64,000 bases of DNA from Alphaproteobacteria bacterium (GCA_964291285.2 OZ219787.1:416001-480000); one strand, 5' to 3'. Counted from the stretch's first letter, positions 15,799 to 43,124 are shown. Notes: a model not told the origin generated them from the letters alone. Translations and numbers: made by a program.

Positions 15799-16544
15799 TC
15801 ACTCCCCGGCCACGATGCGCGGCACATATTCGCGCCAGCCGCCGTCGGCAAGCGCCTGCGCCTTGGGTATCCAGCGCCGCACCTGCGAGCGCATCCAGCT
15901 TTCGGAGTACCAAACGGCCGCGACGTCCTCCTTGCTCCAGATATCCTCCGCGATCGCACGTGGCTTCTTGCCTGCTCCAAGTCCGGCCAGCACCGTCACG
16001 AGCCTGTCTATCTCCTGAACCCCGCCCCCCGACCGTTCGGAGGGGCCGGACGACCCGCCACGCTCCAGAAGTCGAGAAGGCGGCATACCGACAGCGGTAT
16101 CCGGAGCCCGAAGGTGTGCTTGACCGAGACCCTCCCGTCGTCGGGGAACCGCGGCACGTTTCCGAGACGGATCTGGACCGCCGCGCCGCCATATTCGATC
16201 TTGAGCACCAGATCGCCATTGAGCAGGCGCAGCCCCTCGACCGAGCCGCGGTCTCCGACCAGTCCGACCAGCAGCTCTGCGCCCGGATCCAGCAGGCCCT
16301 CCGGCATCCCGTCCTGGCGCCAGAAGGCCGAGGCGGGGCCGTCTGCCTTCCGGGGGTCTTCCCAGGCGAGCATCTCGAACCGCTCCGCCTCCAGATCGAC
16401 CTCCGTCTGAATGCGGATGCGGAAGGGTCCAGGCTCGGTTGCAACGGACACGCCGGCGGCGGCGTGCCGGTCCCAGGCTTCCCGGTATTCACCGACCTGC
16501 CTGAGAACCGTCCAGGCAAGGACGCCGTCCCCGGTCTCCGTCAC
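15799..16544 (-). pseudogene. FseA-like DUF6499/DUF2285 activator split over two overlapping frames
   Basis: 16008..16544 has LAWTVLRQVGEYREAW and WEDP (DUF6499-like). 15799..16086 has RAIAEDIW...WMRSQVRRW...A...GGWR (DUF2285-like). Frames differ by -1 across a G6-C-G4 run. Confidence 0.6.
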
Positions 16545-16789: not shown

Positions 16790-19700
16790 CTACCAGCGGA
16801 TCAACGATCGCAGCATCACGCCGTGATCGACGGACCCGTTATCGTTGGCGGCCTCGCGGCGCGTGGCGTCGAGACTGACCTCGAAGCCGGGGTCACCGCG
16901 CACCGCCGAGGTCAGCCGCCAGCCCATGCGGTACTCGCGCGCCGTCTCCGACATCCCGAGCCCGACGTTCGGCGTGCCGGTAAAGCCGCCGCCGAACAAG
17001 GCCATGCCGTAGCCGACCTCGGCGTCGAACCGGCTCGACGGCTCCGCGTCGCCGTTCGCCGTCAGCCCCGACGACGCGGGCAGCGCCCACAGCCGCTGCG
17101 AGCCCGCCGGGTCCACGCCCCAGGACGGCGTGAGCGACATCGACAGGCCACGCCCAGCGCCGCCCGGCACGAGTCGGAGCTGCCCCGACACGCCCCATTC
17201 GTCGTAGCCGTCTTGCGCATGCACCGCGAGGCCGTGCACCTTCAACGCCATGTCGAGGCCCCGCGACGGATCCGCGTAGCCGAGGCCGGCCCCGACCTCC
17301 AGGCCCGTCCCCGTCTCCGCGTCGCCCGCGTCATGGCGCACGCCCAGCTCGACCGAAGGCGTCAGCGCCGCGCCGCTCGCGAACGAGAAGGTGCGCGAGC
17401 CGTCGAGCATCGCCCGCACCCGGCTCGACTCGCCCCGCGCGCCCATCAGGCTGCCGAACTCCGAGGCCGTCACCCGGTCGGACTCCGTGCGCACCCAGAA
17501 CGCGTCCGCCTTCAGCGCCAGCGCGAACCCGCCGGGCTCGGCGGGCGTGAGCAGATCGCCCCGCACCCCCGTCGCCGCGAGCGTCATCGAGAGGTCCGTG
17601 CGGTAGCTCTGCGGCACCGCGCCGTGAAGGTCGAGGCTGAGGCGCCCCGAGCCCGTGCCCGCGAGCCCCCACACCGACACCCGGTCCGAGAGCGCGAGAC
17701 GCGCATAGGGCATCGCCATCGTCGCCGTGCTGCCGAGCGCGTAGCGCCAGCCCGCATCGCTCGCCGTGCCTTCGCCGACGCTGTGCGTCATCGCGAAGCC
17801 CATCAGCAGCCGGCCCCGCTCGTAGTCCATGCCCATCGAGCCCGTCGCCGCCTCGCCGGTGAGGCCCAGCCCCGGCACCGCCGCCGAGAACCGCGACACC
17901 GACGCGCCCTGGCCCCAGCTCGTCCACTGCGACCCGGCGCCCTGGCCGAGCACCGCCCGGAACGACGCGCCCAGCAGCAGCTCGCGCGCCGTCACCCGGC
18001 GTGCGCCGCTGACGGTGGCGGGATCGTTCCAGCCGCTGGTCAGGCCGTGCCGCACGAACGGGTCATCGTGGTCTGCCGCCGGCGCGGAAGGCGCGCCGAA
18101 GGTCTGCGCGAACCCCGTCAGCACCGTCGCCAGCGCCTCGCCGCCCTCGGCCTCGCCGAAGTTCATGCGCTGCCCCGCGACCGTCACGTGCGAGCCGGCG
18201 TCGCGCGGCGTCTCCAGCCGCGCCGTCACCGACGCGACCGCGTCCGAGGCCACCATGCGCCCGAAGCGCGCCAGCCACATCGCCTGCAGCGGGTCGGAAT
18301 TGCGGATCACGCCCTGCGTCTCGCGCTCCCCGGCCGCGAGCGTCGCGCCCTGCGGGTTCGAGAACCGCAGCAGGAAGTACTCCATCCCCTCGTCGATCGC
18401 GTCGTCGAGGATCGGTACCGAGACCGTCTTCCGCGTCTCGCCCGCCGCGAAGGTGAGCGTGCCCGAGGTCGCGGTGTAGTCCGCGCCCGACCGCGCCGGC
18501 GCCGCCCCCGCCCAGGCGTGGCTGGCGTCCGCGGTCGCGTAGTCCACCGTCACCGTCCCTGTGGCAGCTCGGCTCAGGCGTACCTGGAAGACCACCGCAG
18601 CGTCGGTCCCCTCCCGGGCGATGCCCCGCTTGGTCGCGATGTCCGGATTGTCCTCGTCGTTGTCGGCCACCGCCACCGTCGCGCGCGCCGCTGCGCCCAC
18701 CGTGTAGCCGGTGCCGCTCGCGACCGTCGCCACGATGCCGCCGTCCGCCTCGTCCGCGCCGTCGTTCACAGTCGCGACCGAGAAGGATGCCGATGCCGTC
18801 CCGGCCGGGATGGTCACCGTGCGCGTACCCAGCGCGGAGGCGTGCGCGAAGGCGCCCTGCTGGGCGACCGACACGGTGACCGCAAGGTCCGCCGCCGGTG
18901 CGGGCGAGGCCGTCAGCGTGAAGCCCGCCGACGCGCCTTCCGTCACCGGAGCGTTGCCCGCCACTGTGACTACCGGGGTTGACGTGCCGCCGCCCTCGAT
19001 CCCGCGCAGTGCCGCCGCTACCTCCACCCAGCGCGTCCAGCCCCGGTCCGCATAGCCCTGCGCCTCCGCCGCAGTCATCGGCTGGAGCGAGGAGTCGGAG
19101 ACGGACTGGCCGAGCACGAGCAGCACCCGGTCCCAGCGGTCCGTGTGCGCCTTGTTCGAACTGTAGCGCGGATCGTCGCGCCACCCCTGGACCTTCACGA
19201 TCAGCGTACCGTACTTCGCGGGCACCGTCACCACCGGGGTCGATGTGCCGCTGCCTTGCTGCGGGTCGTCGTCGCTGATCGTCACCTGCACCGAGGACGC
19301 CGTGCCCGCGGTCAGGCCCGAGGACAGGGTGCCAAGCGCCACCGTGAACGTCTCGTCGTCCCCGTCGGTGTCATCGCTCGTCGTAATCGTGCCCGAGGTC
19401 GACGTGCCGCCGGCGGGAATCGCGAGCGACGACAGGGTCCCGTGGTCCCCGTCCTCCGACGTGCCCCCGGTCACGGTCAGCGGAATCGTTACATCCTCCG
19501 ACAGCGCCTTCGCCAGCGTCGCCGTCACCGTGACCGACGATCCCTCGCCCACCGGGTTGGGAGTGGCCGAGAGCGTGACGGCGACCGCCGCCTCGCGCGT
19601 CACCGTCACCGTGTAGGTGCGCTTGTAACGCGCGTCCGGGGCCGTCACCACCACCGTGATCGTGTTCTCCCCCACGGCCAGCTGAACCGGCGTCGCCGGG

Positions 19701-19924
19701 TCGCCGCCGTTCACCGTCACCCGCGCCTTCGGGTTCTCGGGGCTCGCGGTCACCGTGACCTCGGTCACGTCGTGGGCCACCGTCGCGCTGTAGGTCTCGC
19801 GCTCCGGGTCGAACGCCTCGTTCAGGCTCACCTGCCCGCTTGTCGTGGCCCCGGCGCCCGTCGCGCCGGCCGCCATGCACAATGCCGCCGACAGCAGCAC
19901 CGCAATCCGTGCAATCCTCTTCAT
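16790..19924 (-). CDS. Autotransporter-like surface protein (cadherin-like and Calx-beta modules, C-terminal barrel)
   Basis: Signal peptide; AFDPERETYSATV...VGENTITVVVTA (cadherin-like); VTVDYATAD...DYTATSGTLTFAAGETRKTVSVPILDD (Calx-beta); WLARFGR linker; amphipathic strands ending in terminal W. Confidence 0.88.
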   Translation of the reverse strand: MKRIARIAVLLSAALCMAAGATGAGATTSGQVSLNEAFDPERETYSATVAHDVTEVTVTASPENPKARVTVNGGDPATPVQLAVGENTITVVVTAPDARYKRTYTVTVTREAAVAVTLSATPNPVGEGSSVTVTATLAKALSEDVTIPLTVTGGTSEDGDHGTLSSLAIPAGGTSTSGTITTSDDTDGDDETFTVALGTLSSGLTAGTASSVQVTISDDDPQQGSGTSTPVVTVPAKYGTLIVKVQGWRDDPRYSSNKAHTDRWDRVLLVLGQSVSDSSLQPMTAAEAQGYADRGWTRWVEVAAALRGIEGGGTSTPVVTVAGNAPVTEGASAGFTLTASPAPAADLAVTVSVAQQGAFAHASALGTRTVTIPAGTASASFSVATVNDGADEADGGIVATVASGTGYTVGAAARATVAVADNDEDNPDIATKRGIAREGTDAAVVFQVRLSRAATGTVTVDYATADASHAWAGAAPARSGADYTATSGTLTFAAGETRKTVSVPILDDAIDEGMEYFLLRFSNPQGATLAAGERETQGVIRNSDPLQAMWLARFGRMVASDAVASVTARLETPRDAGSHVTVAGQRMNFGEAEGGEALATVLTGFAQTFGAPSAPAADHDDPFVRHGLTSGWNDPATVSGARRVTARELLLGASFRAVLGQGAGSQWTSWGQGASVSRFSAAVPGLGLTGEAATGSMGMDYERGRLLMGFAMTHSVGEGTASDAGWRYALGSTATMAMPYARLALSDRVSVWGLAGTGSGRLSLDLHGAVPQSYRTDLSMTLAATGVRGDLLTPAEPGGFALALKADAFWVRTESDRVTASEFGSLMGARGESSRVRAMLDGSRTFSFASGAALTPSVELGVRHDAGDAETGTGLEVGAGLGYADPSRGLDMALKVHGLAVHAQDGYDEWGVSGQLRLVPGGAGRGLSMSLTPSWGVDPAGSQRLWALPASSGLTANGDAEPSSRFDAEVGYGMALFGGGFTGTPNVGLGMSETAREYRMGWRLTSAVRGDPGFEVSLDATRREAANDNGSVDHGVMLRSLIRW

Positions 19925-19936
19925 CGGACAGATCCC

Positions 19937-21037
19937 CTAATTTCCGGTATTCATTTGAAGATCGCGCAGCCGGGGGTTCGCGTTGTCGACGATCGTGACC
20001 GTGACCACGGACGATGGGCCCGACACCACGTCGCGAGCCACCGTGGGGTTAAACTCCCCGGGGACCGTGACCATGGACCATGTGCCCACCGCCACGCCCG
20101 ACGGCAGGTTCGCCGTGTCCACCGCCACCGTGAACCGCTCGTCGTCGGGGTCGTCGTCCGGGTACGTTTTGATCGTGCCCGACCCGCTCGTCGAGCCGGC
20201 GTTGATCCTAATGCCCCTGAGGAACCCGCGGTCGCCCGCCTCCGACGTGTCCCACGTCACCACGAGCGGGATCTCCACGGCGTTCGCCAGCGGCTTCGTC
20301 AGAGTCACCTGCAACTGCACCGGCGAACCCTCGGCCACCGTGTTGCGCACCGCCCGCAGCGACACCACCGGGCGGGGGCGGAGGTCCTTGATCGTCACCT
20401 CGACCGAGGTCGTGGCGCCCGCCGTCAACCCCGACGGCAGCGCGCCCAGCGCCACCGTGAAGGTCTCGTTGTCCCCGTCGCTGTCCTGGTGCGTCGGCAA
20501 GGCGACCACGCCGCAGCTGCGCTGAATGGAGCCGTCGATGGGGATGGAGTACCCCGTGCGGATCGGCAGGCGGCCGTTCGTGTGGCCCGATAGCGAGATC
20601 CCCCAGTCGCCGTTCTCCGAGGTGCCGTGGCTCACCACTACCGGAATGCGCACCGTGCCCGTTGGCACCACCGCCCGCAACCCGCTTCCGTCCTTCAGGC
20701 AGGCCGTCACGCCCAACCACTTGCCCTCCGTCACCGGGTTGGGGGAGGCGGAGAGGGTGACGGTCTGCGCCTCCGCTGGCGTGGCCGTGAAAGGCGAGAG
20801 CGCACCGAGCAGCAGTGCGAGAGCGGGAAGGAGGCGGAGTAGGCGGACGCGGGAGCGCCCGGGACGAGGGTCAGGCCGGGCGGGGGCCCGCGGAACCGCC
20901 CTGGCTGACGCCGGGGAACGCGAACGGGTGGAAGAGGCCGATCCGGGCGCGCCCGACTCCTTGCGCGGAGAATCCGCCATGACGCCGAACAGGGGCTTGT
21001 CGGTACATTCAGTAAGGCCGAACACGTTCGCCTCCAC
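19937..21037 (-). CDS. Secreted protein with two Calx-beta-like modules and no anchor (true start uncertain)
   Basis: Hydrophobic signal LLPALALLLGALSPFTATPAEA; modules homologous to those of the downstream gene (TLSASPNPVTEG...DGDNETFTVALG). Confidence 0.75.
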   Translation of the reverse strand: MEANVFGLTECTDKPLFGVMADSPRKESGAPGSASSTRSRSPASARAVPRAPARPDPRPGRSRVRLLRLLPALALLLGALSPFTATPAEAQTVTLSASPNPVTEGKWLGVTACLKDGSGLRAVVPTGTVRIPVVVSHGTSENGDWGISLSGHTNGRLPIRTGYSIPIDGSIQRSCGVVALPTHQDSDGDNETFTVALGALPSGLTAGATTSVEVTIKDLRPRPVVSLRAVRNTVAEGSPVQLQVTLTKPLANAVEIPLVVTWDTSEAGDRGFLRGIRINAGSTSGSGTIKTYPDDDPDDERFTVAVDTANLPSGVAVGTWSMVTVPGEFNPTVARDVVSGPSSVVTVTIVDNANPRLRDLQMNTGN

Positions 21038-21117: not shown

Positions 21118-22101
21118 ATGTTCCTTGAACCCCCGTTCAACACTTCGGAGGAGCCGGCGGCGGGCCGGGAACCCGCGCTGGAGGAGCAGCTCGAGCACTT
21201 TGTCCGGGCGGCCCGCGGCGCGTTCAGCGGCAGCACCGAGCGGGCCTTGAGGTCCGATCTCGCCATCTACGCCGAGTGGTGCGGGGAGTGCGGGGAACGG
21301 GCGCTGCCGGCCACGCCCGAGACGATCGCCGCCTTCGTCGACGCAAAGGCGGAACTGCGCGCGCCCGCCACGGTGCGCCGCTACGTCACCAGCATCGGCA
21401 TTGCCCACCGGGCGCTGGGGCTGGAGAAGACGGTGAAGAGCGCGCCGGTGCGGCTGGCGCTCAAGCGCATGCACCGGAAGAAGGGACGTCGCCAGGACCA
21501 GGCGACGGGACTGACCTGGCCGCTGCGCCAGCGCCTGCTGGAAGCGGCGGGGGACAGATTGCTCGACGACCGCAACCGCGCGCTGCTCGCCGTCGCCTAC
21601 GACGCGATGCTGCGCCGGGCGGAGCTGGTTGCACTGCAAGTCCCTGACTTGCTTGGGGAAGTGCGGGGCGAGGGCAGCCTGCTGGTGCGCCGCTCCAAGA
21701 CCGATTGCGAAGGCCGGGGCGAGATCGTCTGGGTCGGGCGGGACACCGTCCGGCTGGTCCGGGCGTGGCTCGACTGCGCCGGAATATCCGACGGCATGCT
21801 GTTTCGCGCGGTCCGCAAGGGCGGTCGGGTCGGGGGGCGGCTGAATCCCTGCGAGGTGTCGCGCATCCTCAAGGCGATGGCGCGCGAGGCCGGCCTGCCG
21901 GAGACGGTTGTGGCGGGCCTGTCGGGCCACAGCACCCGGGTTGGCGCGGCCCAGGACATGGTCGCGGCCGGCATCGAGCTGCCGGCGATCCTGCACGCCG
22001 GCCGGTGGAAATCCACGGCCATGGTCAACCGCTACGGCGAGCGGCTGCTCGCGAAGCGCAGCGGGGCGGCCCAGCTCGCCCGGATGCAGGGAAGGGGCTG
22101 A
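21118..22101 (+). CDS. Cre-like tyrosine recombinase
   Basis: Catalytic set intact: LRRAEL (R), RSKTD (K), SGHSTRVGAA (HxxR), GRW (W, as in Cre), VNRY (Y); N-terminal core-binding domain with PATVRRY. Confidence 0.95.
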   Translation: MFLEPPFNTSEEPAAGREPALEEQLEHFVRAARGAFSGSTERALRSDLAIYAEWCGECGERALPATPETIAAFVDAKAELRAPATVRRYVTSIGIAHRALGLEKTVKSAPVRLALKRMHRKKGRRQDQATGLTWPLRQRLLEAAGDRLLDDRNRALLAVAYDAMLRRAELVALQVPDLLGEVRGEGSLLVRRSKTDCEGRGEIVWVGRDTVRLVRAWLDCAGISDGMLFRAVRKGGRVGGRLNPCEVSRILKAMAREAGLPETVVAGLSGHSTRVGAAQDMVAAGIELPAILHAGRWKSTAMVNRYGERLLAKRSGAAQLARMQGRG

Positions 22102-22444: not shown

Positions 22445-23242
22445 ACGGCGCGGCGGAATCCGACCTTGCGCCACCCCCGGGACGGCGCAAGTTATTGTCT
22501 TCGCGTCACTTTCAGGTTCCGAACGCTCGCTCTGCTGCCTGATCGGCGTCGTCCACGCGCCACAGGCTGATATCACGCCGGGAACAGGGGCGCCTGCGGT
22601 GCTTCGGAAACGAAAACGCTGCGCACGGCTGCCCGTGCGCGGCGCTGCTGTCGAGGCCGGGGCTGTGCTCCGGAACCCGCTACCCGGGTCCGGCGGGGGC
22701 GGACCGCAGAACCGGGCGCGGCGTTCCGTTTTTCGGCTGCCTGGGCTTCGTGCGCACATCTCCCGACTATTCCCTGTCTCCGCAGGCGCGCGTCCGCGGA
22801 GGATGCGCTTCAGGTGTCAGGTGGGAACGCGGTAGCTTGCATCCAGTTGCATTTTTCAATGCGATCCATTGGCGATGCTTATCCGCGAGTGCCGCAGCGA
22901 AGCCGGACCGGACTTCGCGTTCTCCCTTCTCCGCTCCCCCTTGTTAGCGAACCCGGGTCCGCATGGATAATGCCGGTCGCCAGAACATTCATGCGCACGC
23001 GGCATGCCGCGAGGCCGGAGTGTATGGCGCCGCCACGGATCGCGCGTCCCCAATCTGGGGGAGACTCCGGAAGAATTTGCGCGGCGTTTCGGCGAATTGC
23101 ACGAAGACGCATGCCCCCGGCGCCGCCTCGCGGCCTCCACTTTGCCGAGGCCCCGGCCCAGCACCCGCAGTAGATGCCGGGCAAGGCATGTCCGGAAACT
23201 CCATACCGCGTGTCAGGAAACGCACCGCCCACTTCGCTATGA

Positions 23243-24694
23243 GGTCGTGTCCCCAGGGGTGGTGTAGGAGCTGAAGCTTCCGGTGGTAGCTGTGGGTAAG
23301 TGGCCCGCCGCCGCGACCGTCTGGAGTCAGGCGGCGGCGGGCCACTTACCCACAGCGGAGGCCATCGCGGTGCCGGTTAGGGTTGGGCTGTCACAGTCCA
23401 CCTGACCGGAGGAGTACCACGATGACCACCACCGACATGATGACCCTGCGGGCGCTGTTGGAGAAGAGTTCCGACGCCGACCTGCTTCGCGAGATGATCG
23501 GGTTCACGGCCGCGCGTCTGATGGCGCTTGAGGTTGAGGGCCTTGCGGGCGCCGCGCACGGCGAGCGCTCGCCGGACCGGATCACGCAGCGCAACGGCTA
23601 CCGGGACCGGGTCTGGGAGACGCGGGCCGGCACGGTCGAACTGAAGATCCCGAAGCTGCGCAAGGGGAGCTACTTCCCGGGCTTCCTTGAACCGCGGCGG
23701 ATGGCGGAGAAGGCGCTGACGGCGGTGATCCAGGAGGCCTACATCAAGGGCGTATCGACCCGCTCGGTGGACGACCTGGTGCAGGCGATGGGCATGTCGG
23801 GCATCTCCAAGAGCCAGGTGTCGCGGCTGTGCGGCGAGATCGACGACAAGATCCGCGACTTCCTCGACCGGCCGCTGGAGGGCGACTGGCCGTATCTCTG
23901 GCTTGACGCGACCTATGTGAAGATGCGCGAGGCCGGGCGCGTCGTCTCGGTCGCGGTCACCATCGCGGTGGCGGTCAACGATCAGGGCCGGCGCGAGGTG
24001 CTCGGCATGGCGATCGGCGCGTCCGAGGCCGAGACCTTCTGGACCGACTTCCTGCGCTCGCTCGCCCGCCGCGGCCTGCGCGGCGTCAAGCTGGTGATCT
24101 CCGACGACCACAAGGGCCTGAAGGCCGCCGCCACCCGCATCTTCGGCGCCACCTGGCAGAGATGCCGCGTCCACTTCATGCGCAACCTGCTCGCCCATGC
24201 CGGCAAGCAGGGCCGGCGCGTCGTCTCCGCCTTCGTCACTACCGCCTTCGCCCAGGAGGATGCAGACAGCGCCTCCGCCCAGTGGCGCCAGGTCGCCGAC
24301 CAGCTCAGGCCCAAGGCGCCAAAGCTCGCCGCCATCATGGACGAGGCCGAGCACGATGTTCTCGCCTACATGACCTTCCCGGCCGCGCACCGCGCCAAGC
24401 TGCACTCGACAAACCCGCTCGAACGCCTCCACGGCGAGATCAAGCGGCGCACAAACACCGTCGGCATCTTCCCCAACGAGGACGCCATCACCCGGCTGAT
24501 CGGCGCAATCCTGCTCGAGCAGAACGATGAATGGGCAGTCCAGAGAGCCAGATACATGACGCTGGAATCCATCGCTCCCGTGAGCGACAATACAACCGTC
24601 AAGTTGCCCGCCGTGGCAGCCTGAGCGTTCCGGCCCTACCCGCCGGACACCGCTACGGACGCCAGGCTCTTACACCACCCGCGGGGGCACGATC
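23243..24694 (+). mobile_element. IS256-family element, copy 1 (1452 bp)
   Basis: Imperfect ~29-bp IRs (GGTCGTGTCCCC / GATCGTGCCCCC); 8-bp TSD CGCTATGA at 23235..23242 and 24695..24702. Confidence 0.95.
23422..24624 (+). CDS. IS256-family transposase
   Basis: [30 protein letters not shown] and STNPLER motifs. Confidence 0.97.
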
Positions 24695-25042: not shown

Positions 25043-26494
25043 GATCGTGCCCCCGCGGGTGGTGTAAGAGCCTGGCGTCCGTAGCGGTGTCCGGCGGGTA
25101 GGGCCGGAACGCTCAGGCTGCCACGGCGGGCAACTTGACGGTTGTATTGTCGCTCACGGGAGCGATGGATTCCAGCGTCATGTATCTGGCTCTCTGGACT
25201 GCCCATTCATCGTTCTGCTCGAGCAGGATTGCGCCGATCAGCCGGGTGATGGCGTCCTCGTTGGGGAAGATGCCGACGGTGTTTGTGCGCCGCTTGATCT
25301 CGCCGTGGAGGCGTTCGAGCGGGTTTGTCGAGTGCAGCTTGGCGCGGTGCGCGGCCGGGAAGGTCATGTAGGCGAGAACATCGTGCTCGGCCTCGTCCAT
25401 GATGGCGGCGAGCTTTGGCGCCTTGGGCCTGAGCTGGTCGGCGACCTGGCGCCACTGGGCGGAGGCGCTGTCTGCATCCTCCTGGGCGAAGGCGGTAGTG
25501 ACGAAGGCGGAGACGACGCGCCGGCCCTGCTTGCCGGCATGGGCGAGCAGGTTGCGCATGAAGTGGACGCGGCATCTCTGCCAGGTGGCGCCGAAGATGC
25601 GGGTGGCGGCGGCCTTCAGGCCCTTGTGGTCGTCGGAGATCACCAGCTTGACGCCGCGCAGGCCGCGGCGGGCGAGCGAGCGCAGGAAGTCGGTCCAGAA
25701 GGTCTCGGCCTCGGACGCGCCGATCGCCATGCCGAGCACCTCGCGCCGGCCCTGATCGTTGACCGCCACCGCGATGGTGACCGCGACCGAGACGACGCGC
25801 CCGGCCTCGCGCATCTTCACATAGGTCGCGTCAAGCCAGAGATACGGCCAGTCGCCCTCCAGCGGCCGGTCGAGGAAGTCGCGGATCTTGTCGTCGATCT
25901 CGCCGCACAGCCGCGACACCTGGCTCTTGGAGATGCCCGACATGCCCATCGCCTGCACCAGGTCGTCCACCGAGCGGGTCGATACGCCCTTGATGTAGGC
26001 CTCCTGGATCACCGCCGTCAGCGCCTTCTCCGCCATCCGCCGCGGTTCAAGGAAGCCCGGGAAGTAGCTCCCCTTGCGCAGCTTCGGGATCTTCAGTTCG
26101 ACCGTGCCGGCCCGCGTCTCCCAGACCCGGTCCCGGTAGCCGTTGCGCTGCGTGATCCGGTCCGGCGAGCGCTCGCCGTGCGCGGCGCCCGCAAGGCCCT
26201 CAACCTCAAGCGCCATCAGACGCGCGGCCGTGAACCCGATCATCTCGCGAAGCAGGTCGGCGTCGGAACTCTTCTCCAACAGCGCCCGCAGGGTCATCAT
26301 GTCGGTGGTGGTCATCGTGGTACTCCTCCGGTCAGGTGGACTGTGACAGCCCAACCCTAACCGGCACCGCGATGGCCTCCGCTGTGGGTAAGTGGCCCGC
26401 CGCCGCCTGACTCCAGACGGTCGCGGCGGCGGGCCACTTACCCACAGCTACCACCGGAAGCTTCAGCTCCTACACCACCCCTGGGGACACGACC
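25043..26494 (-). mobile_element. IS256-family element, copy 2 (1452 bp)
   Basis: Same IRs as copy 1; its own 8-bp TSD TCCGCTCC at 25035..25042 and 26495..26502. Confidence 0.95.
25113..26315 (-). CDS. IS256-family transposase
   Basis: Translation identical to copy 1. Confidence 0.97.
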
Positions 26495-26905
26495 TCCGCT
26501 CCCGCCACCAATACTGATCTCGTTCCGCTGTACAATCTGCGTTTTATTTTCATTATGCAGGATTGCGGCGACTCTTGCCGGGGCGCGAAAAGTCAAGCTT
26601 ATTCCGTATGTTATGGCGCGCGCGCAAGCCGCCGGGCCCATAGCCGGTCTTCATGCCGGAAGGGGCGAAATTCAGCTGCTGACCACGACTGGCCCTTCAT
26701 GACCTTGATGTCGAATTTCTGATCGTGCCCCTCGCGTACTGGGCAAATCAATTCCGCTTCCGCCTGTCCGACCCCAGAGGCCCACTCCATGTGGTGGCGC
26801 AAATATGTACCATGGGCGCGGCCGTAACTTATCCCAGTAGTTCAAGGCAGAGTCTGCGGGCTTGGTCAGCGATGGAACATGCCTTGCTAGGGTTCTGACA
26901 GTTAG

Positions 26906-31385: not shown

Positions 31386-34300
31386 TCACGCGGCGGGCGG
31401 CCAGCGTTCGAGGATGCGCTCCAGCGCGCCGGCATGGGGCGCGAATATCCGGGCGCGGAACGAGACGATCTCGATCGCGCAGCCCATGCGCCGGAGCGCG
31501 GGCAGGTCGGTATCGGCCGGCCCCTCGACCTCGACCCGGTCGGCGCCCATCAGGCGGCGGCGGGCGAGCCGCCAGCCATTGGCGAGGGCGAGCGGGTTGC
31601 CGCGTTCTATCACCGCCGCGAAGGCTTCCGCGCCGGTCATGGCGGGTCCTCCGTCGAGGCCGAAGCCGGCGCGCACGGCGCGGACCTGCTCCGCGTCGAG
31701 CACGCGCCCGATGAGGGCCATGCCGTCGTCCGGGGTAAGCCGGCGGACGCGCATGTTCTCGGCCGGGAGGCGGTCCCAGACGGGCAGCAGCAGGCCGGTG
31801 GCGAGCCAGAAGCGGGACTCGCGGTGGGACGGCAGGCCGGCGGTCTCGGCGTCCCAGAGCATGCGCCAGCGGGCTTCGTCGGCCTGCCCCCAGTTGGAAG
31901 CGGCGAACTCGGCCCGGGCCATGCGGTCCCGAGCGGCGGGGCGGACCAGCTGCACGCGTTCCTGCACCCCGCCGTCGTCGAGCATGCGCGACGGGGCGGG
32001 CAGCAGGACGGCGGCGCGCTTCGAGCGCGCGTTGACCACGAGGCGGGGCTTTCGGTCCGGCCCCGGGTCGCGGCTTCCGATCTCCAGCGCGGCATCGGCC
32101 GTGAGCGGCATGAGCCTGTCGCGGCGGACGATCCCGACCAGTTCGGTGGCGGCCCCGGCGCCGGGATGCTCATGGAGCGTCTCCCTGCCGGCGACGGCGA
32201 GCGAGTCGGCGGTGACGGTCTCGACCCCCCGCTCGTAGCTGCCGGCCTCGATCGCCTGCTCGATATTGGCGGCGATGCGCTCCTCCAGCGCGGCGAAGAG
32301 CCGGTTCTGCTCGGCGATGGGGAGCGCCAGCAGCCGGTTGAGGAACTTCGGCATCGGCGGCAGGTCGTCCTTGAGACTGCCCTCGTGGACGATCCTTAGG
32401 CCGGTCGACTCCTGGAACCGTTCCGCGTTCCAGCCCTCGATGGCGCCGCGCCAGAGCGCGCCGTAGAACTGCCTGAGCGCCGCCTTCGCGTAGGCGCTCT
32501 CCAGGTTGTCGCTCTCGCGGAACAGCGCGGCGTCGCCCATGGCGGTCTGGCTGTCGCGCTGGCCGCGGGTGATGGCGCCCAGGCTGTCGAGCCGCCGGGC
32601 GATGGTGGCGATGAAGCGGCGCTCGCCCTTCACGTCGGTGGTAACGGGCCGGAAGAGCGGCGCGGAGGCCTGGTGCGTCCTGTGGGTGCGTCCGAGCCCC
32701 TGGATCGCCTGGTCGGCCCGCCAGCCGGGCTCCAGCAGGTAGTGGATGCGCCGCTCCGTGTTCCCGCAAGCGAGGTCGGCATGGTAGCTGCGCCCGGTGC
32801 CGCCGGCCATGGAGAACACCAGGATGCGCTTGCTCCCGTCCATGAAGGCGGCGGTCTCGGCGAGGTTGGCGGAGGCGGGCCGCGAGCGCAGCGAGAGCCG
32901 CTCGCCCTTCCCGTCCACAATGCGCAGCACCCGCCGCGACCGGCCGGTGACCTCGGCGACGGCCTCGTGCCCGAAATGCTGCACGATCCGGTCCAGCGCC
33001 GTCGGCACCGGCGGCAGCGCGGCAAGCTTTTCGATCAGGGCGTCGCGCCGCTCCTCGGCCTCCCTGCAGACGATCGTGTTGCCGTCGGCGTCCCTGGCGG
33101 GGCGGCTGAGCAGCTTGCCGCCGTCGTCGGTGAAGGGCTCCTGCAACTGCACCGGGAAGGCGTGCATCAGGCAGGAGAGGATGGCGTCCCGGGGCGTGAG
33201 GTCGATATTGAGGTCGTCCCACTCGGATGCAGGGACCTCGGCGATGCGCCGCTCCATGAGCGCCTCGCCGGTCGAGACCAGCTGGACCACGGCCGAGCGC
33301 CCGGCTTCGAGGTCGGCCTCGATCGCGCGGATCAGGCTCGGACACTTCATGCCGGTGAGCAGATGGCCGAAGAAGCGCTGCTTCGTGCCCTCGAAGGCGC
33401 TCAGCGCTGCCGCTTTTGCGCTCCTGTTGAGCGTGTCCTCGCCCCGGACGATGCCGGTGGCCTTCAGCGCCTCCCCGATATTGTGGTGGATCACCTTGAA
33501 GGCGCCGGCATAGGCATCGTAGATGCGCCGCTGCTCCGGGGTGAGCGAATGTTCGAGGATGTCGACCTCGATCCCGTCATAGGCGAGCGCCCTTGCCTGG
33601 TAGAGGCCGAGGGCCTTCAGGTCGCGTGCGACGACCTCCATCGCGGCGACGCCGCCGGCCTCCATGGCGGAGACGAAGGCGGTGCGGGTCTCGAACGGCG
33701 TCTCGCCGGCGGCCCACAATCCCAGACGCCCCGCATAGGCGAGGCCGGGGAGCGTGGTGGCGCCGGTGGCGGAGACATAGGCGATGCGGGCGTCGGGCAG
33801 CGCGTTCTGCAGGCGCAGGCCGGCCCTTCCCTGCTGCGACGGCTTCGTCTCGCCGCGTCCGCTCTTCGAGCCGGCGGCATTCGCCATGGCGTGGGCCTCG
33901 TCGAAGACGATGACCCCGTCGAAGGCGTGGCGGCCGTCTTCGTCCAACGAGCCGGCGAGCCACTCGACGATCTGCTCCAGCCGCGAGGGCCTGCCCTGGC
34001 GGGAGGGCGAGCGCAGTGTCGCGTAGGTGGCGAACAGGATGCCCTCGTCGAGGGGTATCTCCATGCCCTGGCGGAAGCTGCCGAGCGGGATGACGTCGCT
34101 CTCCAGCCCGCCCAAAGCGGTCCAGTCGCGCCTTGCGTCCTCAAGCAGCTTGTCGGACTGCGACAGCCAGAGGGCGCGCTTCCGGCCCCTCAGCCGGTTG
34201 TCGAGGATGATGGCGGCGACCTGGCGTCCCTTGCCGCAGCCGGTGCCGTCGCCCAGCATCCAGCCCCGGCGGAAACGCACCGGTTCCGACAGGGTCTCGT

Positions 34301-35870
34301 CCCCGGATCCGGTCCGGGGCAGGCTGTCCCGGGTAGCCGGAGACGCGCCGGGTTCTTCAACTTCGCCGTCCTGCGGGCAGCGGTGGACGGTCTCCCAGCC
34401 GGAGCCGATGCGGTATTGCGCGGCGAGATGGCGGGAATGGGCCTCGCCCGCCAGCACGACGCTCTCGAGCTGGGCGTCGGACAGCAGGCCCTCGGTCACC
34501 ACGCGCTCCGGCAGCATGGGCCGGTATGCCGGCGCCGGATGGGGCACGGCGGCCATGGCGGCGGACTGCACCAGCGGCGTCGGATGCTCGACCGCCCCCG
34601 GCACCCGCACCGCGCCCGGCCGCCAGGGCGCCCAGGGGCCGGTGTCGGCGGCCGAGCCGGCGTCGGTATCGGAGGGTTCGACCGGGCCGGTCTCGACGGC
34701 CAGTTCCGTAACCGGCCCCCGGTCGTGGGCCTGCCGGTCCTCGGGCGTCGATGCGGACTTCGGACCCCGCAGCTTCGCGGGCGCCACCGCCTTGCCGAAC
34801 AGGTCGCGCGCGGGTCCGGCGGGAACGGATGCGATGGGCTGGCGCTTCGGCACGCGCGCGATGACGGCATCGAGCAGTTCGGCAGCGTTCGCGGCGCGGG
34901 CGGTCGTGTCCAGCTCGACTTCAGGTCCGGCGCCGCGCTCCAGCACGGTGAGGCGGGTGTCGAAGCCGGTGCCGCGCCTGGCATAGGCCCGCCCGTCGAT
35001 CGCCATGGTGAAGAGGCAGCGGGCGTCGTCGAGCGAGCCGAAGGCATCGCGCCATGCGGTGCCGCCGGGCGCGCAATGGGCCGAGGTGACCGCGACCAGC
35101 CGCCCGCCCGGCGGCAGCATCGAGGCGGCCGAGCGGACATGGCGCAGATCGGCGCCGCGGGCGGTGCGGTCGACGCCGGGCGTCGCCGAGAAGGGCGGGT
35201 TCATCAGCACCACGGTCGGCCGGACGTCGCGCAGCCGGTCCGCGATCGCCTCGGCGTCGAACGCGGTGACGGCGACCCCGGGGAAGAGCCGCGTCAGCAA
35301 CCGCGACCGCGTGGGCGCGTATTCGTTGAGATGGAGCGCGCCTGCCGCCCGGTCGCCCAGCGCGCACTGCGCCATGACGGCCAGCATGCCGGTGCCGGCC
35401 GACGGCTCCAGCACGGTATCGCCCGGCCGGATGGCGGCGGTCTGGAGGGCGGCATAGGCGAGCGGCAGCGGGGTCGAGAACTGCTGGAGGCGGACCTGCT
35501 CCTCCGAGCGCCTGGTGTGGGAGGGCTCCAGCGCGGCGACGGCCTCCAGCATCGCTAGCATGCGGCGCGGTCCGCCCGCATTGCGGCGCATGGCCCGGGC
35601 GTAGCGCTGCATGAAGATCACCACGGCCGCCTCGGCGGCTTCATAGGCGTCCTTCCAGACCCAGCCGCCCCCGGCGTCGGTGGCGCCGAAGGCCTTTGTC
35701 ATGGCGTCGCGCAGCGTCGCGGCATCGAGCGGCCGTCCGGCCTCCAGCACCGGAAGCAGGGTTCGGGCGGCGGCGAAGAGCGCATCGCCCTGGACCGGGC
35801 GGGCCGGCGGGTTGGTGGCGAGCGCGGGAAGAAGAGGACGCGCGTCCCGCGCCGTGGGGGCGTCGAGCAT
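31386..35870 (-). CDS. Methyltransferase / Strawberry-notch SF2 helicase fusion
   Basis: QQFSTP, VLEPSAGTG and NPPF (MTase); GDGTGCGKG, DEAH, SATG and QGLGRTHR (helicase). Confidence 0.93.
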   Translation of the reverse strand: MLDAPTARDARPLLPALATNPPARPVQGDALFAAARTLLPVLEAGRPLDAATLRDAMTKAFGATDAGGGWVWKDAYEAAEAAVVIFMQRYARAMRRNAGGPRRMLAMLEAVAALEPSHTRRSEEQVRLQQFSTPLPLAYAALQTAAIRPGDTVLEPSAGTGMLAVMAQCALGDRAAGALHLNEYAPTRSRLLTRLFPGVAVTAFDAEAIADRLRDVRPTVVLMNPPFSATPGVDRTARGADLRHVRSAASMLPPGGRLVAVTSAHCAPGGTAWRDAFGSLDDARCLFTMAIDGRAYARRGTGFDTRLTVLERGAGPEVELDTTARAANAAELLDAVIARVPKRQPIASVPAGPARDLFGKAVAPAKLRGPKSASTPEDRQAHDRGPVTELAVETGPVEPSDTDAGSAADTGPWAPWRPGAVRVPGAVEHPTPLVQSAAMAAVPHPAPAYRPMLPERVVTEGLLSDAQLESVVLAGEAHSRHLAAQYRIGSGWETVHRCPQDGEVEEPGASPATRDSLPRTGSGDETLSEPVRFRRGWMLGDGTGCGKGRQVAAIILDNRLRGRKRALWLSQSDKLLEDARRDWTALGGLESDVIPLGSFRQGMEIPLDEGILFATYATLRSPSRQGRPSRLEQIVEWLAGSLDEDGRHAFDGVIVFDEAHAMANAAGSKSGRGETKPSQQGRAGLRLQNALPDARIAYVSATGATTLPGLAYAGRLGLWAAGETPFETRTAFVSAMEAGGVAAMEVVARDLKALGLYQARALAYDGIEVDILEHSLTPEQRRIYDAYAGAFKVIHHNIGEALKATGIVRGEDTLNRSAKAAALSAFEGTKQRFFGHLLTGMKCPSLIRAIEADLEAGRSAVVQLVSTGEALMERRIAEVPASEWDDLNIDLTPRDAILSCLMHAFPVQLQEPFTDDGGKLLSRPARDADGNTIVCREAEERRDALIEKLAALPPVPTALDRIVQHFGHEAVAEVTGRSRRVLRIVDGKGERLSLRSRPASANLAETAAFMDGSKRILVFSMAGGTGRSYHADLACGNTERRIHYLLEPGWRADQAIQGLGRTHRTHQASAPLFRPVTTDVKGERRFIATIARRLDSLGAITRGQRDSQTAMGDAALFRESDNLESAYAKAALRQFYGALWRGAIEGWNAERFQESTGLRIVHEGSLKDDLPPMPKFLNRLLALPIAEQNRLFAALEERIAANIEQAIEAGSYERGVETVTADSLAVAGRETLHEHPGAGAATELVGIVRRDRLMPLTADAALEIGSRDPGPDRKPRLVVNARSKRAAVLLPAPSRMLDDGGVQERVQLVRPAARDRMARAEFAASNWGQADEARWRMLWDAETAGLPSHRESRFWLATGLLLPVWDRLPAENMRVRRLTPDDGMALIGRVLDAEQVRAVRAGFGLDGGPAMTGAEAFAAVIERGNPLALANGWRLARRRLMGADRVEVEGPADTDLPALRRMGCAIEIVSFRARIFAPHAGALERILERWPPAA

Positions 35871-42792: not shown

Positions 42793-43124
42793 GCCAGTCT
42801 CCATGGAGGGTTGCGGACGGTCGGCGCGGGCGGCCCACTCCGGCTGCCCCGCGCCTGCCCGGACCGCCGCCCCGCTCCGGCTCCGGGCGGTGCGGTCCGG
42901 CGGGCGCCGGCGCCGGATACGGGCCGACGGCGCGGTGCGGCGGTATCGGAAACGGCGGCAGACGGCGCGCGGCCGGAAGTGGTCCGGCCGGCGCTGCTGC
43001 GGGCGGGGAGCGGCGGTCAGCCCCGCGTCACGGGGTCGGATGCGCAGGCGGCCGGCAGCGCCGGGGGCCGCCGGCAGACGAAGGCGCCGTGGAGGGTCGG
43101 GAAGCGGCGCGCCGCCGTCGGAGG

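What the first reader, a model, noticed from the sequence alone, without database searches (positions are those of the whole stretch)
19590..20000. Cadherin-like domain split between two secreted proteins: candidate donor-strand attachment
Seen: the upstream protein has no anchor and ends VDNANPRLRDLQMNTGN. Twelve bp later the autotransporter starts with its own signal peptide, then TTSGQVSLNEAFDPERETYSATV. Recalled pattern: cadherin-like beta-sandwich repeats begin A-x-L-x-x-L-x-(L/V)-x-x-G, then L-x-P-x-F-x-P...Y-x-x-x-V. The first strand is missing from the autotransporter and matches the other protein's tail. The second signal peptide argues against a simple nonsense break. Inference: a tip protein docks on the surface stalk by beta-strand complementation, as in pilus assembly. 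I know of no description of this for autotransporters.
Basis: partly seen in the sequence, partly recalled or inferred. Interest (0 to 1): 0.75.

Follow-up and report, generated by a model that had tools for sequence, protein, structure and literature searches.

The report
Split domain joins tip to autotransporter
A secreted protein ends with the one beta-strand that the first domain of the neighbouring outer-membrane autotransporter lacks, and this cut is kept in many related gene pairs, so the two proteins probably snap together into a surface stalk with exchangeable tips.

Summary
The 366-aa protein (19937..21037, minus strand) ends ...NANPRLRDLQMNTGN. Twelve bases later a 1044-aa autotransporter starts with its own signal peptide, then a cadherin-like domain that lacks strand A.

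The cut is conserved. I found 15 autotransporter starts of this type, in the window's genome, five other genomes and two metagenome contigs. In 13, an upstream same-strand ORF ends L[RG]xLx[LM]x(x)G[NDQ], 12-14 nt before the start codon. One tail is diverged and one is absent. The upstream "tip" proteins are otherwise unrelated in their domains.

No fused form was seen: among 270 retrieved proteins the motif is C-terminal in 17 and internal in none.

A complex model places the tail as an edge strand on the autotransporter domain (ipSAE 0.61; best control 0.00). The C-terminal 500 aa fold like type Va translocators.

Best reading, about 0.6: a split beta-sandwich joined in trans, giving a two-piece adhesin carried on an integrase-borne cassette. 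Binding is not shown, and how the tip crosses the outer membrane is unknown.

Main rival: the tail is only a recombination junction.

Two earlier notes of this scan describe split cadherin-type domains between phage genes on other DNA. None concerns autotransporters.

The parts
19937..21037 (-). Tip gene (366 aa from GTG 21037; other possible starts are GTG 21025, which has GGAGG upstream, and ATG 20980). Layout: Arg/Pro-rich leader, Sec-type signal peptide (h-region LLRLLPALALLLGAL, AEA|Q near residue 90), three Calx-beta/LapA-like beta-sandwich repeats, then the tail. No barrel, lipobox or sorting domain.
   Evidence: Homologues P0001 (95% identity), P0002, P0005 and P0014 end with the same tail.
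19940..19984 (-). Tail NANPRLRDLQMNTGN (tip residues 352-366), the candidate donor strand. It corresponds to strand A of the cadherin-like fold: Leu at i, i+3 and i+5, Gly at i+8.
   Evidence: It is the interface in the complex model (chain-2 residues 129 and 131-145). Conserved DNA homology with other loci begins here.
19925..19936 (-). 12-nt spacer between the tip's stop codon (TAG, 19937-19939) and the autotransporter's ATG. The TAG and the first spacer bases read AGGGGA, a Shine-Dalgarno-like run.
   Evidence: Spacers of 12 nt (7 pairs), 13 nt (2) and 14 nt (5) in 14 pairs.
19847..19924 (-). Signal peptide of the autotransporter (residues 1-26, MKRIARIAVLLSAALCMAAGATGAGA).
   Evidence: Read from the sequence. 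Conserved in the orthologues. No signal-peptide predictor was available.
19592..19846 (-). N-terminal cadherin-like beta-sandwich lacking strand A (residues 27-111), the candidate acceptor.
   Evidence: Pfam PF12733, E 3.6e-19. Aligns to positions 15-100 of the complete-domain HMM. AF2 alone gives mean pLDDT 81, with the first 10 residues at 51. Residues 56-63 pair with the tail in the complex model.
16790..19924 (-). Whole autotransporter gene (1044 aa). Layout: signal peptide, truncated cadherin-like domain, Calx-beta-type repeats, helix, C-terminal barrel ending ...LIRW.
18341..18616 (-). Calx-beta domain (residues 437-528).
   Evidence: Pfam PF03160, E 3.7e-18. PDB profile hits to Na/Ca-exchanger CBD domains.
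16793..18301 (-). Linker helix plus beta-barrel translocator (residues 542-1044).
   Evidence: AF2 model with mean pLDDT 66, barrel blocks mostly 71-91. Foldseek top hits are type Va beta-domains: BrkA 3qq2 (E 1.7e-8, TMt 0.73), EspP, Hbp, NalP, EstA and AIDA-I. Pfam, NCBIfam and a PDB sequence search give no call.
21118..22101 (+). Tyrosine recombinase, divergent from the tip gene. It belongs to the same mobile cassette.
   Evidence: Pfam PF00589. Copies at 76-88% amino-acid identity lie next to tip or autotransporter genes in L019, L021, L026 and L029.
15799..16544 (-). Two overlapping small ORFs downstream of the autotransporter (16008..16544, 178 aa; 15799..16086, 95 aa with a RovC_DNA-bd domain). 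Conserved downstream of related autotransporter genes, so probably the cassette's regulator.
   Evidence: tblastn hits in L014, L015, L017, L021, L026, L029, L041, L059, L067 and L078. Pfam PF10074, E 3.8e-8.

Best explanation
This is a two-gene surface adhesin in which one cadherin-like beta-sandwich domain is split between two polypeptides. Both proteins are exported by Sec. The autotransporter inserts its C-terminal barrel in the outer membrane and displays a stalk of Calx-beta-type repeats. The most distal domain of that stalk is made without its first strand, because signal-peptide cleavage leaves only about five polar residues before strand A'. The upstream tip protein ends in a 10-12-residue amphipathic strand (RLRxLx[L/M]xxG[N/D/Q]). 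That strand inserts antiparallel beside autotransporter residues 56-63 and completes the sandwich. The join sits exactly where the A-A' loop of an intact domain would be.

The tail, spacer and autotransporter form one conserved DNA block, so recombination upstream of the tail swaps tips (Fn3, cadherin-like, Calx/LapA-like arrays and others) onto the same stalk. The pair rides on an integrase-borne cassette found in bacteria of several lineages, some from records labelled as sponge symbionts.

Shown: the anatomy, the conservation, the lack of fused forms in what was retrieved, the autotransporter-like fold, and the mobility context. Predicted: the binding and its geometry. Inferred: surface display of the tip and the order of events, whether docking in the periplasm followed by co-export or docking outside the cell.
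For: (1) Anatomy.

(2) Recurrence. There are 15 autotransporter starts of this type: the window's genome (1), G037 (2), G038 (5), G039 (1), G040 (3), the MAG of L021 (1) and two metagenome contigs. Of these, 13 have the strict tail, L091 has a diverged one (NNTLLAVLEMRTSPQ) and L102 has none.

(3) All 14 tails are read in frame at the end of upstream ORFs whose last domains are of at least four kinds. Pfam finds fn3, Cadherin-like, LapA or nothing.

(4) Selection acts on the protein. Gly is encoded by GGA, GGC or GGG. The third hydrophobic residue is ATG, TTG or CTC. Leu is kept throughout.

(5) DNA homology between the window and L014 or L171 rises from 26-50% to 86-100% exactly at the tail codons.

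(6) No fused form: the motif is C-terminal in 17 and internal in 0 of 270 proteins. The six-frame scan of the loci held gave none either.

(7) Complex model: score 0.61 in the median run (three runs 0.59-0.70), best of 3 controls 0.00. That mark was reached by 116 of 157 solved complexes and 2 of 215 mismatched pairs; these counts hold only roughly, because my own alignments were used. The runs share at least 83% of contacts and the partner's pLDDT is at least 66. The partner's confident contacts are residues 129 and 131-145, which is the tail. They pair antiparallel with autotransporter residues 56-63 and also touch 29-34. The autotransporter domain's pLDDT is 82-86 with the tip and 58-59 with unrelated partners.

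(8) In the model of the domain alone, residues 58-63 are not in a strand, so that edge is unpaired.

(9) In 13 of 14 cases the tip shares domains (E<1e-8) with passenger regions of six single-chain autotransporters from the same loci. All 9 tips with complete N-termini carry the signal-peptide type seen on those long autotransporters. A pair therefore looks like a long autotransporter cut in two.

(10) The C-terminal domain has the fold of a type Va translocator.
Against: Taken alone, each tail's fit to the general strand-A profile is only in the top 1-5% of control C-termini, and a whole-HMM search did not pick the tails out.

The domain alone is predicted with mean pLDDT 81, so it may be stable without a partner.

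The complex model may simply rebuild a familiar fold from memory. It says nothing about affinity.

The tip has no known route across the outer membrane.

There are exceptions. L102 has the truncated autotransporter start but no tail upstream. P0006 ends in the tail DNA read in another frame, and P0008 ends ...RLRDLQID without the Gly.

The loci come from few genomes, which exchange this cassette, so the 13 are not 13 independent events.

The strict motif was written after seeing the tails.

Pfam does not call an autotransporter domain on this protein.
Confidence: 0.6

Rival explanations
1. Recombination junction only. The tail is the leftover 5' edge of a mobile autotransporter block. It is kept because crossovers that bring in new upstream genes happen at or before it. 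It has no binding role, and the tips are independent periplasmic or secreted proteins.
For: DNA homology starts abruptly at the tail. Relic junctions are fused in frame in front of other signal peptides in L056, L058 and L061, and L102 has hybrid signal peptides. The cassette sits next to an integrase. The tail's fit to strand A is modest.
Against: All 14 tails are in frame and end the upstream ORF. A junction without function should often be out of frame or lie behind the upstream gene's own stop. Amino acids are kept through synonymous codon changes. Every autotransporter of the family lacks exactly the strand that the tail resembles. The complex model passes its controls.
Confidence: 0.2
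2. The tail is a signal for something else, such as recognition by a periplasmic chaperone, a protease or another secretion system. The truncated autotransporter domain is stable on its own.
For: The domain alone is predicted with mean pLDDT 81. The tip needs some route out of the periplasm, and none is evident.
Against: The tail has the residue spacing of strand A of the very domain that follows. It is always next to this autotransporter type. No candidate partner gene is conserved in the cassette other than the integrase and a RovC-like regulator.
Confidence: 0.08
3. A recent nonsense or frameshift break of one long autotransporter gene, that is, a pseudogene.
For: Single-chain relatives with the same domain types exist.
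Against: The same stop position is kept in 13 of 15 loci, at 64-86% identity of the autotransporter N-terminal region (signal peptide plus domain). A full signal peptide and a Shine-Dalgarno-like run follow the stop. No fused form was retrieved.
Confidence: 0.02
4. Programmed stop-codon read-through or frameshifting makes one fused protein.
For: In 7 of 14 pairs the 12-nt spacer keeps the two ORFs in frame.
Against: In the other 7 of 14 pairs the spacer is 13 or 14 nt. A fusion would also bury a hydrophobic signal peptide inside a secreted passenger.
Confidence: 0.02

Closest known systems
Type V pili of Bacteroidia (FimA/Mfa1): protease-triggered strand exchange
   Same: The acceptor lacks its N-terminal beta1 strand, and a C-terminal strand of another chain can fill that position. 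In passages of PMC5789003 read, Rgp cleavage removes beta1, and in mature Mfa1 the C-terminus occupies the beta1 position. This is the same geometry as proposed here: a C-terminal donor filling an N-terminal gap.
   Different: In type V pili the gap is made by proteolysis of a lipoprotein precursor, and the result is a homopolymer. Here the gap is encoded in the gene, because signal-peptide cleavage sits right before strand A'. There is no lipobox, the product would be a 1:1 heterodimer, and the acceptor is an autotransporter passenger.
Chaperone-usher pili (Fim, Pap, Caf1, Saf): donor-strand complementation and exchange
   Same: An incomplete Ig-like fold is completed by a strand from another polypeptide. 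This gives a very stable non-covalent joint between surface subunits (general knowledge; introduction of PMC5789003).
   Different: In those pili the missing strand is the C-terminal G strand and the donor is an N-terminal extension. A periplasmic chaperone and an outer-membrane usher are needed. Neither is encoded in this cassette, going by the ORFs that I scanned.
Classical (type Va) autotransporters
   Same: Signal peptide, passenger, helix and C-terminal barrel. The fold matches BrkA, EspP, Hbp, NalP, EstA and AIDA-I. The protein ends in an aromatic residue.
   Different: The passenger is made of beta-sandwich repeats, not a beta-helix. The Pfam autotransporter model does not match. A second polypeptide appears to supply part of the passenger. 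My three searches found no report of this (listings only).
Two-partner secretion (type Vb)
   Same: Two adjacent genes, one a secreted protein and the other an outer-membrane barrel.
   Different: No TPS domain in the tip, and no POTRA or Omp85-type family on the barrel protein, in Pfam. The barrel protein carries its own large passenger.
Split cadherin-type domains between adjacent phage tail or fibre genes
   Same: A cadherin-type domain is cut between two neighbouring genes, the cut is kept in relatives, and it is read as a plug-and-socket for exchangeable heads.
   Different: Those are phage structural proteins on other DNA, with two strands donated. They are AI notes that I did not check. 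The sequence look-up found no related stretch.
Engineered split domains (SpyTag/SpyCatcher from CnaB2) and chaperone-free donor-strand fibres (TasA, archaeal cannulae)
   Same: A short strand peptide completes a beta-sandwich made by another chain. SpyTag and TasA are recalled; for cannulae I saw only the title and start of the abstract of PMC12518558 in the listing.
   Different: SpyTag is man-made and forms an isopeptide bond. The fibres are homopolymers.

Membership tests
Type Va (classical) autotransporter | C-terminal 12-stranded beta-barrel translocator preceded by a helix | tested here: met
   The AF2 model of residues 542-1044 has a helix at 4-30 and then a barrel. Foldseek's top 13 rows are all type Va beta-domains, best BrkA 3qq2 with E 1.7e-8 and TMt 0.73. 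The mean pLDDT is only 66, and I did not count the strands.
Type Va (classical) autotransporter | Match to the Pfam Autotransporter beta-domain model PF03797 | tested here: not met
   No call on the window's protein, nor on any of the 18 orthologues at E up to 1. Three more distant relatives (P0130, P0138, P0160) carry PF03797 in the precomputed list.
Type Va (classical) autotransporter | N-terminal Sec signal peptide and C-terminal aromatic residue | tested here: met
   MKRIAR, a hydrophobic run and A-G-A; the protein ends ...LIRW. Judged by eye, as no predictor was available.
Pfam PF12733 Cadherin-like beta-sandwich | Significant match to the model | tested here: met
   E 3.6e-19 on residues 33-111. 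All 18 orthologues match.
Pfam PF12733 Cadherin-like beta-sandwich | Complete domain including strand A (L-x-x-L-x-[LIV]-x-x-G) | tested here: not met
   The autotransporter aligns to positions 15-100 of a 100-position HMM built from 129 complete domains. A complete domain gives Pfam 1-89 starting at the first Leu. The missing part resembles the tip's tail.
Donor-strand complementation systems (chaperone-usher pili) | A strand from a second polypeptide completes an incomplete Ig-like fold | tested here: inconclusive
   Predicted only: ipSAE 0.61 against 0.00 in controls, with the tail as the interface. No measurement.
Donor-strand complementation systems (chaperone-usher pili) | Dedicated periplasmic chaperone and outer-membrane usher | tested here: not met
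   The neighbouring ORFs that I scanned are an integrase, IS transposases and a RovC-like regulator. I did not search the whole genome for PapD or usher families.
Type V pili (FimA/Mfa) | Lipoprotein precursor whose N-terminal strand is removed by a protease | tested here: not met
   No Cys at the signal-peptide cleavage site of either protein. The strand is absent from the gene rather than cut off.
Two-partner secretion (type Vb) | TPS domain in the cargo and POTRA-bearing Omp85-type transporter | tested here: not met
   No such Pfam family on either protein. The barrel's fold hits are type Va.

The most novel reading that the evidence does not exclude
The autotransporter exports a second, separately translated polypeptide. 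In the periplasm, the tip's C-terminal strand pairs with the autotransporter's still-unfolded N-terminal domain. The tip is then pulled out, C-terminus first, behind the passenger, as a passenger supplied in trans. On this reading type V secretion is not strictly self-transport, and the split domain is both the coupling device for export and the final joint. The stalk would then act as a general socket for exchangeable adhesin heads in host-associated bacteria.
Probability: 0.2. Interest if true: 0.92.

Novelty: new variant of a known kind. Interest (0 to 1): 0.78.

Why it matters
Autotransporters are defined as single polypeptides that carry their own passenger. A conserved family in which the distal part of the passenger is a separate gene product, joined by completing a split beta-sandwich, would add a new assembly principle to type V secretion. 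It would also pose a sharp, testable question: how does the second chain cross the outer membrane?

It would also explain how bacteria living in sponges and similar hosts diversify their surface proteins, which carry eukaryote-like Fn3, cadherin and Calx domains. They could swap tip genes onto a constant stalk by one crossover at the tail, on a cassette that moves between lineages.

A natural 12-residue tag with a roughly 85-residue catcher could also be useful for surface display.

Tried and rejected
Pfam coordinates as proof of the missing strand. The hit 5-89 of 89 looked nearly complete, but a complete domain gives 1-89 from the first Leu. I therefore built my own HMM.

Whole-HMM local search of 25-residue C-termini. 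Low-complexity control ORFs outscored everything in the 40 rows that I printed, and no tail appeared among them, so the test has no discriminating power. I replaced it with an anchored PSSM.

Family-level genome search. Of the 36 other genomes, 3 gave only domain-level matches (best E 6e-13). No orthologous pair was found.

Metagenome scan. Of the 8 loci I inspected, two (L091, L102) have the truncated start. The regex survey of all loci found no other among the 80. The rest that I saw are ordinary complete or internal cadherin-like domains.

Search of 1.84 billion representatives with the N-terminal profile. It gave 13,637 hits at E<=0.001, but the 150 listed are multi-repeat proteins, so it cannot be used to size the truncated family.

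Structure searches. Foldseek with the N-domain alone gave no hit at E<=0.001, only generic Ig-like folds. A PDB sequence search with the barrel gave 0 hits. The A5 profile gave only Calx-beta hits. I therefore could not check on a solved structure that strand A normally pairs with the strand at residues 56-63.

Promoter and terminator scan. Nothing useful.

Reads. Contigs from runs labelled sponge, marine and coral metagenome hold relatives at 85% likeness or more. No listed contig bridges the junction with 31 letters on both sides; X4 record 13 and X6 record 27 reach only 23 letters into the autotransporter.

Covariation. Tail position 140 and autotransporter position 59 go together (Q with T or S; D or E with N or D). 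There are only two or three clades, so I do not count it.

One search failed on a frame slip and was corrected.

Full report
**What is there.** On the minus strand, ORF 19937..21037 (366 aa) ends ...VTIVDNANPRLRDLQMNTGN-TAG. Twelve bases later ORF 16790..19924 (1044 aa) begins MKRIARIAVLLSAALCMAAGATGAGA / TTSGQVSLNEAFDPERETYSATV.

Pfam finds a Cadherin-like domain (PF12733, residues 33-111, E 3.6e-19) and a Calx-beta domain (residues 437-528) in the long protein. In the short one it finds only sub-threshold LapA/Calx-like signals.

The short protein has an Arg/Pro-rich leader and a Sec-type signal peptide (LLRLLPALALLLGAL...AEA|Q). It has no barrel, lipobox or sorting domain. Its start codon is uncertain: GTG 21037, GTG 21025 behind GGAGG, or ATG 20980.

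**Is the long protein an autotransporter?** Sequence libraries do not say so. There is no PF03797 on it or on 18 orthologues, no NCBIfam match, and no PDB sequence hit.

An AlphaFold2 model of residues 542-1044 shows a long helix followed by a beta-barrel. It was built from 19 sequences and has mean pLDDT 66, with barrel blocks mostly 71-91. Foldseek's best matches are all type Va translocators: BrkA 3qq2 (E 1.7e-8, TMt 0.73), EspP, Hbp, NalP, EstA and AIDA-I. The protein ends in Trp. I accept "autotransporter" at the level of fold.

**Is a strand really missing?** I collected 129 complete cadherin-like domains, each with its 16 preceding residues, from the fetched loci and built a 100-position HMM. 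Its consensus is RAASADATLSALALSEGTLSPAFAAETTSYTATV....

The window's autotransporter aligns to positions 15-100, and the other six N-domains start at positions 13-17. The mature protein has about five polar residues where positions 1-14 should be.

Pfam's coordinates (5-89 of 89) hide this. A complete domain gives 1-89, with position 1 on the first Leu of strand A.

In an anchored PSSM test the tail fits positions 7-18: Leu at 9, 12 and 14, Gly at 17. Taken alone this fit is modest. For the window's tail, 102 of 5511 control C-termini score at least as high. Across the 14 tails the figure is 56-264 of 5511.

**Recurrence.**
- *Own genome and family.* The pair is single-copy in its own genome. 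No orthologue was found in the 36 other genomes of its family.
- *Tip homologues.* The large protein collection holds homologues of the tip that end in the same way: P0001, P0002, P0005 and P0014.
- *Autotransporter homologues.* From the 120 proteins listed I picked 27 by length and Pfam pattern. Of these, 26 begin with the same signal peptide followed directly by (V/K)(S/D)L...F...Y.ATV.
- *Loci with flanks.* These came from the species-genome collection (77 distinct loci), a metagenome scan (80 loci) and five genomes reached through those loci.
- *Count of starts.* In all this DNA I found 15 distinct autotransporter starts of the truncated type.
- *Tails.* In 13 of them an upstream same-strand ORF ends L[RG]xLx[LM]x(x)G[NDQ]-stop. 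Examples are RLRALQLNAGN, RLRALDLNSGN, RLRALDLSGN, RLRQLELEIGD, RLGRLELEIGQ and RLRDLQLNPGN. L091 has a diverged tail (NNTLLAVLEMRTSPQ). L102, a short mosaic contig, has none.
- *Spacers.* The spacer is 12 nt in 7 pairs, 13 nt in 2 and 14 nt in 5.
- *Sources.* The window's genome, five other genomes and two metagenome contigs. The record titles shown name Alphaproteobacteria, Defluviicoccus, Candidatus Binatia and an unclassified bacterium.
- *Independence.* These genomes share a mobile cassette, so the 13 are not independent events.
- *Motif against controls.* The strict motif, written after seeing the tails, fits 13 of 14 tails and 0 of 5511 control C-termini. A loose motif for canonical strand A fits 14 of 14 tails and 34 of 5511 controls.

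**No fused form.** A regex scan of the 190 proteins then held, and of all six frames of the loci then held, found the tail only in front of a stop. One weak match in L018 is an ordinary internal domain. After the 'longer' search the motif was C-terminal in 17 and internal in 0 of 270 proteins. The closest internal complete domains in the loci score about 60 bits or less against the truncated-domain HMM, among the rows I printed. The family's own members score 118-160 bits.

**Exceptions.**
- P0006 ends with the tail DNA read in another frame.
- P0008 ends ...RLRDLQID, without the Gly.
- L102 has no tail.

**The tips are exchangeable.** The upstream ORFs range from about 150 aa to over 1000 aa. 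Pfam finds Fn3 arrays, cadherin-like domains, LapA/Calx-like repeats, or nothing. At least four different kinds of last domain precede the tail.

Nearly identical stalk N-termini carry three different tips (window, L014 and L171). An alignment of the junction DNA shows identity to the window jumping from 26-50% to 86-100% exactly at the tail codons. So the tail, spacer, signal peptide and autotransporter form one conserved block, and tips are swapped upstream of it.

Within the tail, Gly is GGA, GGC or GGG, and the third hydrophobic residue is ATG, TTG or CTC. The constraint is therefore on the protein.

Relic junctions fused in frame in front of other signal peptides (L056, L058, L061) show that the block recombines.

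In 13 of 14 cases the tip shares domains with passenger regions of six single-chain autotransporters from the same loci (E<1e-8). All 9 tips whose N-termini are complete carry the signal-peptide type of those long proteins. A pair looks like a long autotransporter cut in two inside a cadherin-like domain.

**Predicted complex.** I folded autotransporter residues 27-116 (alignment of 7 rows) with the tip's last 145 residues (13 rows). The result was ipSAE 0.61 in the median run (0.59-0.70 over three runs) against 0.00 for the best of three controls.

The tool's mark was reached by 116 of 157 solved complexes and 2 of 215 mismatched pairs. These counts hold only roughly here, because my own alignments were used. 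The runs agree in at least 83% of contacts, and the partner's pLDDT is at least 66.

The partner's confident contacts are residues 129 and 131-145, which is the tail. It pairs antiparallel with autotransporter residues 56-63 (61 with 138, 59 with 140, 57 with 142) and touches residues 29-34. That is the geometry expected if the cut merely opens the A-A' loop.

The autotransporter domain's own pLDDT is 82-86 with the tip and 58-59 with unrelated partners. The model may be rebuilding a familiar fold from memory. It supports compatibility, not affinity.

Folded alone, the domain has mean pLDDT 81 (five models: 81, 79, 79, 69, 52). Its first ten residues are at 51, and residues 58-63 are not in a strand. 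No solved structure is close enough to check the normal partner of strand A.

**Context.** A tyrosine recombinase (21118..22101, +) lies divergent from the tip gene. Copies at 76-88% amino-acid identity sit beside related tip or autotransporter genes in L019, L021, L026 and L029.

Two overlapping small ORFs downstream (15799..16544, -) recur behind related autotransporter genes in ten loci. One of them carries a RovC-type DNA-binding domain.

The surroundings are IS-rich and look like an integrative element. The two IS copies are identical.

Contigs of runs labelled sponge, marine and coral metagenome hold relatives.

**Reading.** The best-supported explanation (about 0.6) is a split beta-sandwich joined in trans. 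The tip's C-terminal strand completes the stalk's distal domain, giving a two-piece adhesin with exchangeable heads.

The main rival (about 0.2) is that the tail is only the edge of a recombination block. Against that stand the in-frame tail in 14 of 14 cases, the protein-level constraint, the matching gap in every stalk, and the complex model.

A nonsense break and read-through are practically excluded.

The weakest link is topology. The tip has only a Sec signal, and nothing here shows how it reaches the cell surface. It might dock in the periplasm and be pulled out behind the passenger, or it might dock from outside.

**Comparison and novelty.** The principle is donor-strand complementation. 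The nearest geometry is the type V pilus, where an N-terminal strand is removed and a C-terminal strand can take its place (passages of PMC5789003).

The system fails the membership tests for chaperone-usher pili (no chaperone or usher among the neighbouring ORFs scanned), for type V pili (no lipoprotein precursor, no protease step) and for two-partner secretion (no TPS or POTRA domain).

Three full-text searches gave no report of a split passenger domain in an autotransporter. I saw titles and the start of abstracts only. Subscription journals are largely outside that library.

Two earlier AI notes of this scan describe split cadherin-type domains between phage tail or fibre genes on other DNA. 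I did not check them.

Noticed in passing
window 21118..22101 (+); L019, L021, L026, L029: A tyrosine recombinase lies divergent from the tip gene. It recurs at 76-88% amino-acid identity next to related tip or autotransporter genes in four other loci. The pair therefore sits on an integrase-borne mobile cassette. I did not look for its ends or attachment sites.
   Followed up: partly
window 15799..16086 (-) and 16008..16544 (-): Two ORFs overlap by 79 nt just downstream of the autotransporter and are conserved behind related autotransporter genes in ten loci. The second has a RovC_DNA-bd (PF10074) domain. From memory, the overlap recalls regulators of integrative elements that are made by a programmed frameshift. 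This was not tested.
   Followed up: partly
window 23241..24694 and 25043..26496: Two copies of an IS256-family (Transposase_mut) element, 100% identical over 1454 nt, lie in inverted orientation about 350 nt apart. The layout resembles a composite transposon.
   Followed up: partly
L056:3619-3800, L058, L061 (N-termini of long ORFs): Relic junctions. A degenerate tail, spacer and autotransporter-type signal peptide (...RLRQLEPEISEQGAFQMKNIARISML...) are fused in frame in front of a second, tip-type signal peptide. The junction block has been copied and has decayed elsewhere.
   Followed up: no
L102:877-1924: On a short metagenome contig a unit is repeated twice...TTAGGSFTTTTC-stop, 46 nt, then MKKLARIAMLL. 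One copy has a hybrid signal peptide. The other is followed by a truncated cadherin-like start without a strand-A tail upstream. This is the one clear exception to the pairing.
   Followed up: partly
window 20770..21037 (-) and N-termini of long autotransporters in L015, L020, L057: A conserved Arg/Pro-rich leader (...PDPRPGR.RAR...) precedes the hydrophobic core of the tip-type signal peptide, both in tips and in single-chain relatives. It may be an extended signal region, or it may be translated 5' leader.
   Followed up: no
window 31386..35870 (-), 40408..43752 (-), 57665..60010 (-): A Strawberry-notch-like helicase with a methyltransferase domain, a large ParB_N-domain protein and a Transposase_29 gene. 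The window looks like part of an integrative or plasmid-derived island.
   Followed up: no
window 19634..19869 and 20126..20364: Contigs of one RNA library (run X23, labelled coral metagenome) cover close relatives of the autotransporter's N-domain, with 2-8 differences per 73-110 nt. More distant relatives of the tip gene are also covered. DNA carry-over is not excluded, so this is only a hint of expression.
   Followed up: partly
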